Assembly: GCA_000004985.1 (NCBI GenBank)
Contig: GG739321.1
Length of the DNA stretch: 1,830 bases
Direction: 5' to 3' (one strand)
DNA from: Naegleria gruberi
Lineage: Eukaryota
Below, piece after piece: positions 1 through 1,830 of this stretch; positions within the stretch are counted from its first letter, which is position 1; every line of letters starts with the position of its first letter. The translations under genes were made by a program, and so were the position numbers. A model generated the notes under the pieces. The model did no database searches, was not told where the DNA came from, and saw only the letters and a list, made by a program, of their open reading frames with translations.

Positions 1-982
1 CTAGCAACCGTTGTTTTGGCAGTCCTGGTGGTCCTCTGAAGGCCATAGCCAAAAAATTGTCTCTTGTTTCTTTTGTTACTTCTCCATACTTAGTCAAGTC
101 ATAAACAACAGGGTTGACAATTGAGTTAATTAATTGATCTTTCACATTAGCCATATTAACCAAATTTCTATCTATTTCTTCACTTAATTCAATCTTCAAA
201 GATTTAGCCATTTTCTTTCGTTTATCTCTCTTCTCTTTAACTAACTCCTCTGGATTAGTCTTTTGTAAATACTCTTCGTACAATTCTTTCAAATTGGGTT
301 CAGGGTCCCCATGTGCCTCAATCCAATCAGGATGAGTCTCTTCAAGATCATCATTCATATTAAACCGATCACAAAAGTATTTTCTACACTTTACCCAAGC
401 TCTTTTAAGCTTAGTTTCGTAAAGAGGGTCAATTGTTTCATTCTTCAAACCCGACCATGAAGGATAATAGGTCGCTAAAAACTTATCCCTACGCAAGTAT
501 TCGGTTTGGAGTTTCGTTTCAAATCGTTTTTGGCTACATATATCACTGGTACAACAAAATAATGAGGGTGATTTGTTTGCTACAGCCCTAAACCCGTGAA
601 AAGCAGGGAAAATATGGCAAGAACATTCGTGCTTCTCGTGATTTGGATCACTAGAAGTACATTTTGAATTACAAAGTGGACATAACTCTGGGCAGCCAAT
701 AGAGAATTGACGAAGATGTGTTTTCAGATCATTCAAAGCTTTTTCACTAAAACTTTCCAAAGTCATATCAGTTATGTCTTTTCTATATTGTACAATGATA
801 TACTCAATTAACTGTTCAGAAAATACTTTTGGATCACATATTTTGATTTGATCATGGATTATTTCTTTTGGAAATAATGATTGAATATCGAAATGTGGAT
901 TAAATGGCTTGTTTAGGGTGATGTTCAATTCATTTGAAAGTTGAGTATGAATTTTTTCAAATCTTTCCTTTTCTCCACTCAT
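1..982 (-). CDS. Hypothetical Cys/His-rich protein, N-terminal 327 residues (MSGEKERFEKIHTQLSNELN…GPPGLPKQRLL). The 3' end is off-window (partial). Contains a putative zinc-binding module and a basic K/R-rich segment.
   Basis: Not in the supplied ORF track because there is no stop in the window. I checked all plus-strand triplets beginning at positions ≡2 mod 3 from 2 to 982 and none is TTA/CTA/TCA, so there is no minus-strand stop. ATG at 982..980 is the first start codon after an in-frame upstream stop (TAA at 1048..1046); no ATG/GTG/TTG lies between them. Cys/His pattern at residues 97-149: C97-x3-C101-x2-C104-x3-C108, H115, H118, C120, C122, H123, H129, C143, C144, C149. Confidence 0.85.
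   Translation of the reverse strand, partial: MSGEKERFEKIHTQLSNELNITLNKPFNPHFDIQSLFPKEIIHDQIKICDPKVFSEQLIEYIIVQYRKDITDMTLESFSEKALNDLKTHLRQFSIGCPELCPLCNSKCTSSDPNHEKHECSCHIFPAFHGFRAVANKSPSLFCCTSDICSQKRFETKLQTEYLRRDKFLATYYPSWSGLKNETIDPLYETKLKRAWVKCRKYFCDRFNMNDDLEETHPDWIEAHGDPEPNLKELYEEYLQKTNPEELVKEKRDKRKKMAKSLKIELSEEIDRNLVNMANVKDQLINSIVNPVVYDLTKYGEVTKETRDNFLAMAFRGPPGLPKQRLL
197..244 (-). other. Highly charged basic stretch within gene B (residues ~247-262: LVKEKRDKRKKMAKSL), flanked by acidic residues (EEL… …ELSEEIDRN).
   Basis: Seen directly in the translation. It is a low-complexity K/R/E-rich run, compatible with a flexible linker, a nucleic-acid-contacting patch or a coiled-coil segment. 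Confidence 0.4.
371..694 (-). other. Putative zinc-binding Cys/His-rich module within gene B (residues ~97-204: GCPELCPLCNSKCTSSDPNHEKHECSCHIFPAFHGF…LFCCTSDICSQ…CRKYFCDRF).
   Basis: Seen directly in the translated sequence. Ten Cys and five His in about 55 residues with regular C-x2/3-C spacing typical of zinc knuckle, ribbon or treble-clef folds, plus two further Cys (C199, C204) downstream. Confidence 0.5.
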
Positions 983-987
983 ATAGC

Positions 988-1830
988 TTATAAAGTGTTG
1001 GTAGATGAGATGGGGAACAGTTTCTTGCTGTGTAACACCGAAAAGTTAACAAATAGACCTTTCCATTCCTGAATAGAGTCTACAATTCTGTTCTGTAAAA
1101 CTTCTTTTTGTTCTTCGAATCCTTTTTTGTGATATTTCAGTGCATGTATAACTTTCTCTTTAAAGTCGTCTTCGAATATTTCTGTTAGCAAAGCATTTGT
1201 ATTCAAAGCAAATCGAAGAACGTAAGCCCAATTCTTCTCTTCAAAGCTCATTTTAAAGGCTATCTTAGATGTTGTTTCGGGATCCATATATGTTGTCTTA
1301 AGCTTGCATTCTATATCATCAGTAATTTTTGTTACAATCGATGTGTTAATATGTGATTTCACTTTTGAAATAAACCCATTGGCATGTGTTTCGGCCCATC
1401 TTTTGTCAGTTTGTTGGTTTGCTAAAATTATCGTAAAGGTGTTTCTCATATTAATTTTCATTTCTTTCAATTGGTTTAGAGATTGTTCACAACTCTCTAA
1501 GTATTTTCTGTTGCTACACTCTTTCAAATTTACAAGCAACAATGAAAATAATAAATTGATAAATGCTGCTGTGCTATTAATGGTATGTTCAGTTTTCTCG
1601 ATATAGTTATAAATCAAATTATAAACCTCTATACCTTTATCAAATATAGTATCTATGAAATTGCTATCGATATCAAAAGGAAAATTAACAATAAGCTTTC
1701 CAACAACAACTACTTGCTCCCTAATGAAGGGAATATTTAACACTTCCTTTGGTTGGAAAGCATTGTACAAATTGGGAAGCAAATGCCTGCAACCTATTTT
1801 TTTTCTTGGGAACAATTTCAGCAAGCATTT
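988..1830 (-). CDS. Hypothetical protein, C-terminal 278+ residues. The 5' end is off-window (partial), or less likely the protein starts at TTG 1824..1822. No P-loop or other recognisable motif in the visible part.
   Basis: ORF track shows a minus-strand frame open from 1824 to TAA at 990..988. I reverse-complemented the window end (AAA TGC TTG CTG AAA TTG TTC CCA AGA...) and this frame stays open to the window edge at 1830 (K-C-L-L-K-L-F-P-R-K-K...). The first in-frame ATG is far downstream (…KEMKINM…), so the true start is probably beyond 1830. An uninterrupted ORF of >840 nt in ~67% AT DNA is very unlikely by chance. It has the same orientation as the downstream gene and is tightly spaced to it. 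Confidence 0.8.
   Translation of the reverse strand, partial: KCLLKLFPRKKIGCRHLLPNLYNAFQPKEVLNIPFIREQVVVVGKLIVNFPFDIDSNFIDTIFDKGIEVYNLIYNYIEKTEHTINSTAAFINLLFSLLLVNLKECSNRKYLESCEQSLNQLKEMKINMRNTFTIILANQQTDKRWAETHANGFISKVKSHINTSIVTKITDDIECKLKTTYMDPETTSKIAFKMSFEEKNWAYVLRFALNTNALLTEIFEDDFKEKVIHALKYHKKGFEEQKEVLQNRIVDSIQEWKGLFVNFSVLHSKKLFPISSTNTL
1797..1804. repeat. Homopolymer T8 on the + strand (A8 on the coding strand of gene A, codons AGA AAA AAA ATA encoding R-K-K-I).
   Basis: Counted directly: t1797..t1804, flanked by a1796 and c1805. Confidence 0.9.

What the first reader, a model, noticed from the sequence alone, without database searches (positions are those of the whole stretch)
980..1048. 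Stop and start 5 nt apart: translationally coupled gene pair, or one large gene split by a frameshift
Gene A ends at TAA 990..988 and gene B begins at ATG 982..980, leaving a 5-nt gap (GCTAT on the coding strand). There is no purine-rich Shine-Dalgarno element in the 20 nt upstream of the ATG (…CCAACACTTTATAAGCTAT|ATG). The two reading frames differ by one nucleotide and both stay open across 988..1046, because gene B's frame only hits an upstream stop at 1048..1046. A single indel anywhere in that ~60-nt overlap would therefore fuse the two ORFs into one protein of more than 600 residues. The arrangement is consistent either with an operon using stop-start coupling in a lineage that does not use SD (for example Bacteroidota) or with a large single gene disrupted by a frameshift, a sequencing error or recoding.
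Basis: seen in the sequence. Interest (0 to 1): 0.5.

Follow-up and report, generated by a model that had tools for sequence, protein, structure and literature searches.

The report
Frame-broken giant-GTPase gene fragment, Naegleria
The close stop and start codons are not two coupled bacterial genes but a single reading-frame break inside one eukaryotic gene, the tail of a GVIN/URGCP-type giant GTPase on a tiny Naegleria gruberi scaffold, most likely a sequencing error or a recent inactivating mutation, so the feature is ordinary.

Summary
On the minus strand, frame A is open 1830..991 and ends at TAA 990..988. Frame B is open 1045..2 with its first ATG at 982..980 and lies -1 relative to A. 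The operon reading fails. The window is the entire 1830-bp scaffold of the eukaryote Naegleria gruberi, which carries two NCBI "predicted protein" models. An exhaustive phmmer search with A+B found 108 relatives. Eighteen align in one stretch across the junction. The six full-length relatives scanned carry the URGCP-like GTPase domain PF25683. A alone and B alone hit the same 33 proteins, collinearly in 32. A profile built from 29 homologs places A on positions 57-252 and B on 285-486. So TAA and ATG are incidental: an out-of-frame stop and an internal Met. The break lies between about 1062 and 991, probably 1045..1010. Its cause cannot be decided without reads. I favour a base-calling or assembly error, or else a very recent frameshift, because both halves are otherwise fully open and all conserved residues are intact. 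A short intron is weakly possible. Programmed frameshifting has no support. Interest is low.

The parts
991..1830 (-). Frame-A segment (280 codons, runs off the scaffold's 5' end). It is the helical region upstream of the C-terminal Cys/His domain of a GVIN/URGCP-like giant GTPase.
   Evidence: Open frame. Residues 62-258 (nt 1647..1057) match homolog-profile positions 57-252, 80.4 bits, E 2e-26. A alone hits 34 family proteins. The NCBI model EFC35360.1 (P0002) covers only Met124 to the stop.
991..1062 (-). Zone in which the reading frame must switch from A to B (-1). The most likely sub-zone is 1045..1010, which contains the runs TTTT 1044..1041, AAA 1023..1021 and CCCC 1014..1011.
   Evidence: Upper bound: the conserved Trp (W256, 1065..1063), aligned in frame A. 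Lower bound: TAA 990..988. A single indel must lie below the frame-B stop at 1048..1046. The best homolog P0003, and P0038, gain 10-13 bits when frame B is read from 1014 or higher. Post hoc shuffle tests give p of about 0.014-0.04. A pooled test is not significant.
988..990 (-). TAA, the first stop met in the wrong (A) frame after the break. It is not a genuine gene end.
   Evidence: Homologs continue for about 250 or more aligned residues past this point.
983..1045 (-). Frame-B open extension upstream of the ATG (LFGVTQQETVPHLIYQHFISY), probably coding at least in its 3' half.
   Evidence: LIYQHFISY aligns with LLLSHFIQY of P0003 and HFVEY of P0037. In the AlphaFold2 model of the repaired protein, YQHFISYMS forms helix 277-285 with block-mean pLDDT 73-82. 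This evidence is suggestive only.
980..982 (-). ATG, an internal methionine codon rather than a start codon.
   Evidence: It lies inside the stretch aligned to homologs (Y-M-S-G against Y-L-F-G, Y-L-K-G and Y-V-S-G). The organism is a eukaryote, where a start 5 nt after a long ORF's stop would not be used efficiently (established knowledge). The NCBI model for this half starts at a different, later Met.
2..982 (-). Frame-B segment: the conserved C-terminal domain of the family plus an extension of about 100 codons that runs off the scaffold's 3' end.
   Evidence: nt 910..284 match homolog-profile positions 285-486, 149.7 bits, E 2e-47. B alone hits 109 family proteins in the local set.
551..697 (-). 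Cys/His cluster GCPELCPLCNSKC..H..H.C.CH..PAFHG...CC. This is the family's most conserved motif, is probably metal-binding (inference), and is intact here.
   Evidence: Nearly invariant columns G379 C380 C384 P385 C387 C391 H398 H401 H406 F411 G413 C427 in a 29-sequence alignment. No Pfam model covers it.

Best explanation
Region 980..1048 is the interior of one protein-coding gene of the eukaryote Naegleria gruberi. The gene encodes the C-terminal ~600 residues of a GVIN/URGCP (VLIG)-type giant GTPase homolog. Its reading frame is broken once, by a -1 shift (one base missing or two extra) somewhere between about 1062 and 991, most likely 1045..1010. After the break, frame A runs into an incidental TAA (990..988). 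The ATG at 982..980 is an ordinary internal Met codon in the true downstream frame. Shown: the eukaryotic source; single-polypeptide homologs spanning the junction; collinear profile matches of the two halves. Inferred: the cause of the break. I consider a base-calling or assembly error in this tiny Sanger scaffold the most likely cause (about 0.5). A genuine, very recent frameshift (pseudogene or null allele) comes second (about 0.35). The stated confidence is for the one-gene reading, whatever the cause of the break.
For: Source: P0001 and P0002 are 100% identical to parts of B and A. They are NCBI EFC35359.1 and EFC35360.1 of Naegleria gruberi, on a contig of exactly 1830 bp. Single polypeptide: an exhaustive phmmer search of the fused query gave 108 hits, 18 of which align in one stretch across residues 280/281 (e.g. 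P0003 110-505, P0004 87-504, P0008 74-507). A alone and B alone hit the same 33 proteins, in the right order in 32. A profile of 29 homologs, query excluded, matches A at positions 57-252 (E 2e-26) and B at 285-486 (E 2e-47), which are adjacent and non-overlapping. Family: PF25683 URGCP-like GTPase domain in P0003, P0004, P0005, P0008, P0011 and P0022. P0005 is named 'Interferon-induced very large GTPase 1'. The ATG is internal: frame B upstream of it aligns with the best homolog. Evidence for an error or a recent event: there is only one lesion; 280 + 348 codons are otherwise stop-free at about 8% random stop density; all nearly invariant family residues are intact. The assembly is Sanger with 1,977 scaffolds (PMC9928731 Table 1). 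The break lies about 810-1050 nt from either scaffold end, where Sanger read tails would meet (inference).
Against: No reads or second copy of the locus could be examined, so error and real mutation cannot be separated. The position of the break is only weakly localised: the pooled homology test and the codon-usage test are uninformative. The window's linker between the two conserved blocks is a median of about 22 residues longer than in homologs, which leaves room for a short intron. GVIN-family genes are often pseudogenised or annotated as pseudogenes in other lineages, so a real lesion is quite plausible.
Confidence: 0.9

Rival explanations
1. This is a genuine frameshift mutation. The locus is a recently inactivated pseudogene, or a null allele, of a GVIN/URGCP-like gene, and the sequence is correct as deposited. 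(This is a sub-case of the one-gene reading; it rivals only the sequencing-error sub-claim.)
For: The frame break is present in the deposited scaffold. No intact copy was found in any collection. The family is prone to pseudogenisation or pseudogene annotation elsewhere, such as human GVINP1. The scaffold holds only the C-terminal third of the gene, and no other Naegleria relative appeared among the hits.
Against: There is only one lesion in 1830 nt. Both halves are stop-free and every nearly invariant residue is retained, so any inactivation must be very recent. The scaffold is tiny and from a Sanger assembly, where single-base indel errors are common (plus general knowledge).
Confidence: 0.35
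2. A short spliceosomal intron spans the junction. Splicing out a GT..AG segment whose length is 2 mod 3 joins frame A to frame B, so the genome sequence is correct and the gene is intact.
For: The organism is a eukaryote with introns. From memory, and not verified here, Fritz-Laylin et al. 2010 report short introns with a median of about 60 nt. Nineteen GT..AG pairs of 32-194 nt restore an open frame. The window's linker is a median of about 22 residues longer than in homologs.
Against: No candidate donor matches GTAAGT, GTATGT or GTGAGT at more than 4 of 6 positions. Most candidates delete either the conserved Trp or the LIYQHFISY stretch that aligns with the best homolog. The one candidate that keeps both is only 35 nt long. 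The genome annotators did not model an intron here. GT and AG are frequent by chance in this sequence.
Confidence: 0.08
3. These are two real, separately translated genes (stop-start coupling or reinitiation). The family's C-terminal Cys/His domain would have become an independent protein by gene fission.
For: An ATG lies 5 nt after the stop. NCBI annotates two predicted proteins on the scaffold.
Against: The source is eukaryotic, where coupled polycistronic translation is not the norm. All 32 collinear homologs carry both halves in one chain, and 18 align across the junction in a single stretch. Neither NCBI model uses this ATG, and both models start at internal Mets. Frame B upstream of the ATG shows homology to the best hit.
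Confidence: 0.03
4. Programmed -1 ribosomal frameshifting fuses A and B during translation.
For: B is -1 relative to A, and both frames are open over 57 nt.
Against: No X XXY YYZ slippery heptamer in frame A occurs anywhere in 1046..991 (read). No Rfam frameshift element or other RNA family was found. Cellular -1 PRF in eukaryotic chromosomal genes is rare (general knowledge). No homolog requires frameshifting.
Confidence: 0.02

Closest known systems
GVIN1 / VLIG-1 / URGCP family of giant (very large inducible) GTPases
   Same: The window's two ORFs together match the C-terminal ~400 residues of family members. These include the conserved Trp-containing helical region and the GCxxxCPLCxxKC...H..H.C.HH..PAFHG Cys/His cluster. 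Full-length relatives carry Pfam PF25683 URGCP_GTPase, and one is named Interferon-induced very large GTPase 1. Human GVIN1 forms an antibacterial coat on Burkholderia (bioRxiv 10.1101/2025.03.24.645074).
   Different: Identity to the spanning relatives is only about 23-28%, and the nearest named relatives are from a glomeromycote fungus, sponges and a dinoflagellate. The GTPase domain lies outside the 1830-bp scaffold and could not be seen. The source organism is a heterolobosean amoeboflagellate without an interferon system. The ORF continues about 100 codons past where most homologs end.
Frameshift-split ORFs in draft assemblies, or pseudogenes annotated as two adjacent hypothetical proteins
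   Same: There are two abutting same-strand ORFs in frames one base apart. Each matches a consecutive part of one protein family, and the incidental stop and ATG lie in a poorly conserved linker.
   Different: Nothing substantive differs. Only the cause (error or mutation) is unresolved here.
Bacterial translationally coupled gene pairs
   Same: The stop-to-start distance is short (5 nt) on the same strand.
   Different: The source is eukaryotic. There is no SD and no overlapping ATGA/TAATG. Homologs are fused, and the termini are not conserved.

Membership tests
GVIN/URGCP (VLIG) giant GTPases | Conserved C-terminal region (helical segment plus Cys/His cluster) collinear with family members | tested here: met
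   Homolog profile: A matches positions 57-252 (E 2e-26) and B matches 285-486 (E 2e-47). All nearly invariant residues are present.
GVIN/URGCP (VLIG) giant GTPases | VLIG-type / URGCP-like GTPase domain (Pfam PF25683) N-terminal to that region | not testable with these tools
   In homologs the domain lies about 500-1000 residues upstream. The scaffold ends before it, and no further N. gruberi sequence was reachable.
GVIN/URGCP (VLIG) giant GTPases | Single very large polypeptide (more than 1000 aa) | tested here: inconclusive
   The repaired reading gives at least 609 residues that run off both scaffold ends. Full length cannot be seen.
Translationally coupled prokaryotic gene pair | Prokaryotic (or phage) origin | tested here: not met
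   Both encoded fragments are 100% identical to NCBI Naegleria gruberi proteins on a contig of 1830 bp. There is no match in phage, plasmid, viral, or bacterial/archaeal genome collections.
Translationally coupled prokaryotic gene pair | Homologs occur as two separate genes with conserved termini | tested here: not met
   Eighteen homologs align in one stretch across the junction, and 32 of 33 carry both halves collinearly in one chain.
Programmed -1 ribosomal frameshift site | Slippery heptamer X XXY YYZ in the upstream frame within the overlap | tested here: not met
   None occurs in 1046..991 in frame A (read).
Programmed -1 ribosomal frameshift site | Stimulatory downstream RNA structure | not tested
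   Only an Rfam scan was run, and it found nothing relevant.
Spliceosomal intron | GT..AG boundaries with consensus-like donor, with removal restoring one ORF and the homology | tested here: inconclusive
   Nineteen frame-restoring GT..AG pairs exist. Donors match the consensus at no more than 4 of 6 positions, and most candidates remove residues that align to homologs. There are no transcript data.

The most novel reading that the evidence does not exclude
The deposited sequence is correct and the break is biologically used. One possibility is an unusually short or non-consensus Naegleria intron. Another is recoding or reinitiation that expresses the conserved Cys/His C-terminal module of a giant-GTPase homolog separately from, or fused to, the upstream helical region. 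A milder and more likely novelty is that this scaffold is evidence for a GVIN/URGCP-type giant GTPase in Heterolobosea. That would extend the family, and its uncharacterised Cys/His domain, deep into eukaryotic diversity.
Probability: 0.06. Interest if true: 0.45.

Novelty: new member of a known kind. Interest (0 to 1): 0.12.

Why it matters
For the finding itself it matters little. It is an annotation and assembly clean-up: the two N. gruberi "predicted proteins" EFC35359.1 and EFC35360.1 should be merged and flagged as one frame-broken gene fragment. It also illustrates that operon and Shine-Dalgarno reasoning misleads when the source domain of life is unknown. There is a modest side value. 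The scaffold shows a GVIN/URGCP-like giant-GTPase C-terminal domain in a free-living amoeboflagellate. Its relatives are in fungi, sponges, dinoflagellates and vertebrates. This is relevant to the deep ancestry of a cell-autonomous immunity GTPase family whose C-terminal Cys/His module has no Pfam model or solved structure.

Tried and rejected
- Pfam and NCBIfam scans of A and B gave nothing above threshold.
- The k-mer homology search with fused A+B returned no hits. It did not return even the identical source proteins, so it says nothing about paralogs.
- PDB sequence searches gave only chance-level hits. A family member hits only the Sey1 GTPase domain.
- DNA searches of phages and plasmids, viral contigs (15, 16, 51), metagenome contigs (50, 63) and bacterial/archaeal genomes (64) found no copy or close relative. 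Orthologous loci could therefore not be compared.
- The look-up of encoding contigs for the two NCBI fragments found nothing on record.
- Promoter, terminator, repeat and Rfam scans of the window gave chance-level results.
- Attempts to pin down the break all failed or were weak. The summed phmmer score over all homologs varies by less than 1% among break positions and simply rises for any variant that shortens the linker. The pooled local-alignment shuffle test was not significant (frame-B extension z 0.31, frame-A tail z 1.5). The codon-usage switch-point model differed by only a few bits. I had picked out by eye an 'F..Y/F-L' linker motif across the family. It did not survive the objective pooled test, so I rely only on the post hoc P0003/P0037/P0038 matches.
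- Foldseek of the AlphaFold2 model against the PDB found nothing with E at or below 0.001. The afdb50 library was unavailable.
- The Fritz-Laylin 2010 paper was not held, so the Naegleria intron statistics are from memory only.

Full report
**1. Observation**

All features lie on the minus strand.
- Frame A is open from the window edge (1830) to 991 and ends at TAA 990..988, giving 280 codons.
- Frame B has a stop at 1048..1046 and is then open from 1045 to the other window edge, giving 348 codons. Its first ATG is at 982..980.
- The spacer is GCTAT.
- No purine-rich element precedes the ATG.
- B is -1 relative to A.

With this strand's base composition about 8% of random codons are stops. The two long ORFs are therefore far beyond chance. 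The 21-codon open stretch of frame B upstream of the ATG is not (P about 0.17).

**2. Source**

An exhaustive phmmer search returned two 100%-identical fragments. P0001 is 229 aa and matches part of B. P0002 is 157 aa and matches the end of A. Both are NCBI entries of Naegleria gruberi: EFC35359.1, 'predicted protein, partial', and EFC35360.1/XP_002668104.1. Each was seen on one contig whose length is 1830 bp, which is exactly the window.

The window is therefore a complete, tiny scaffold of the N. gruberi NEG-M assembly. That assembly is Sanger-based, 40.9 Mb, 35% GC and 1,977 scaffolds (PMC9928731 Table 1). The window has 30-39% GC. It is eukaryotic nuclear DNA, so Shine-Dalgarno, operon and Bacteroidota arguments do not apply. 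No match exists in phage, plasmid, viral, metagenome or bacterial/archaeal genome collections.

**3. What the two ORFs encode**

Neither ORF matches a Pfam or NCBIfam model. The exhaustive search with A+B concatenated found 108 relatives.
- The six full-length relatives scanned (P0003, P0004, P0005, P0008, P0011, P0022; 1204-1869 aa) all carry Pfam PF25683, the URGCP-like GTPase domain. All six also hit the RHD3 GTPase model and three the GBP model, more weakly.
- Named members include 'Interferon-induced very large GTPase 1 (VLIG-1)' from the dinoflagellate Durusdinium.
- Other members are uncharacterised proteins from the fungus Funneliformis, the sponges Oscarella and Corticium, and a frog.

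The window corresponds to the C-terminal third of such proteins. For example, query residues 110-505 align to residues 1214-1609 of the 1614-aa P0003.

**4. One gene or two**

Four results bear on this.
- Eighteen homologs align in a single uninterrupted stretch running from within A (start residue 233 or earlier) to within B (end residue 418 or later), across residues 280/281 of the concatenation.
- Searched separately, A hits 34 and B hits 109 of the collected relatives. Thirty-three are hit by both, and in 32 the A match lies upstream of the B match in the same chain.
- A profile HMM was built from 29 homologs without the query. It matches frame A residues 62-258 (nt 1647..1057) at profile positions 57-252 (80.4 bits, E 2e-26). 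It matches frame B (nt 910..284) at positions 285-486 (149.7 bits, E 2e-47). These two blocks are adjacent and non-overlapping in one architecture.
- An AlphaFold2 model of the repaired protein (mean pLDDT 78, pTM 0.64) shows a long helix 211-266 running through the conserved Trp. A short loop follows, and then helix 277-285 (YQHFISYMS), which contains the 'start' Met.

The two-gene reading is therefore rejected. TAA 990..988 is an out-of-frame stop, and ATG 982..980 is an internal Met codon. Neither NCBI model uses that ATG.

**5. Where the break is**

Hard bounds are the conserved Trp codon (1065..1063, frame A) and the TAA. A single-base indel must lie below the frame-B stop, that is within 1045..991.

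The best homolog, P0003, aligns LLLSHFIQY to the frame-B stretch LIYQHFISY, which lies upstream of the ATG. Reading frame B from 1014 or higher adds 10-13 bits for P0003 and P0038. Post hoc shuffle tests give p of about 0.014 (P0003), 0.016 (P0037) and 0.04 (P0038). The frame-A tail scores at chance against P0003.

A pooled test over 29 homologs and a codon-usage switch-point model are uninformative, so the localisation to 1045..1010 is only suggestive. Homopolymers in this zone are TTTT 1044..1041, AAA 1023..1021 and CCCC 1014..1011. Adding one T to the first run gives ...EWKGLFVNFFGVTQQETVPHLIYQHFISYMSGEKERF...

**6. Cause of the break**

This step is inference.

- **Error or very recent event.** There is only one lesion. 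Both halves are stop-free. All nearly invariant family residues are intact (G379 C380 C384 P385 C387 C391 H398 H401 H406 F411 G413 C427 W479). The scaffold is tiny, and the break lies about 810-1050 nt from either end, where Sanger read tails would overlap.
- **Real mutation.** No intact copy exists in any collection. Family members are often pseudogenised or annotated as pseudogenes: human GVIN1 was long catalogued as GVINP1.
- **Intron.** Nineteen GT..AG pairs would restore the frame. No donor matches a consensus at more than 4 of 6 positions. Most candidates delete residues that align to homologs, and the only one sparing them is 35 nt long. The window's linker is a median of about 22 residues longer than in homologs, so an intron is not excluded.
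- **Programmed -1 frameshifting.** There is no slippery heptamer and no Rfam element.

My estimates are: one gene 0.9 or higher. Within that, error about 0.5, real frameshift about 0.35, intron about 0.08, and recoding or two genes about 0.05 together.

**7. Comparison with the known, and verdict**

The feature works like, and is, a frame-broken ORF of the kind common in draft assemblies and young pseudogenes. The gene is a previously unrecognised member of the GVIN/URGCP giant-GTPase family, annotated only as 'predicted protein', as judged by its C-terminal region. The defining GTPase domain lies off the scaffold and could not be tested.

The finding is ordinary, and interest is low. The modest side interest is the presence of this immunity-associated family, and of its uncharacterised, probably metal-binding Cys/His module, in a heterolobosean. 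That module has no Pfam model. No solved structure was found for it by sequence or by fold search.

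Noticed in passing
window 551..697 (minus strand): There is a strongly conserved Cys/His cluster (GCPELCPLCNSKC..H..H.C.CH..PAFHG...CC). It is nearly invariant across 29 homologs from fungi, sponges, dinoflagellates and metatranscriptomes. It has no Pfam model and no significant PDB sequence or fold match. 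It is probably a metal-binding module of the GVIN/URGCP C-terminal domain.
   Followed up: partly
window 2..283 (minus strand): Frame B continues for about 100 codons beyond the point where most homologs end. The stretch is Lys/Glu-rich, and a long helix 527-581 is predicted. It runs off the scaffold without a stop. The NCBI partial model P0001 ends at ...KYGE (nt 82..80), immediately before GTAACA (79..74), which suggests the annotators placed a splice donor there.
   Followed up: no
whole window: No second observation of this sequence and no Naegleria paralog turned up anywhere. The 90% clusters of both NCBI fragments have a single member. The closest named full-length relatives are about 25-28% identical and come from Glomeromycota, sponges and dinoflagellates. 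The N-terminal two-thirds of the gene, including the GTPase domain, is absent from the scaffold. Whether the scaffold is an under-assembled N. gruberi locus or a stray sequence was not resolved.
   Followed up: partly
window 988..1461 and 80..766 (minus strand): Both NCBI gene models on the scaffold start at internal methionines: Met124 of frame A, and MTLESF, the 73rd residue after ATG 982..980 in frame B. Upstream residues that still match the family profile (A residues 62-123) are therefore left unannotated.
   Followed up: yes
(method): The word-indexed protein search returned no hit for the fused query, not even the 100%-identical source fragments that are in the same collection. The exhaustive HMMER search found 108 relatives. 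A negative result from the k-mer tool would have been misleading here.
   Followed up: yes
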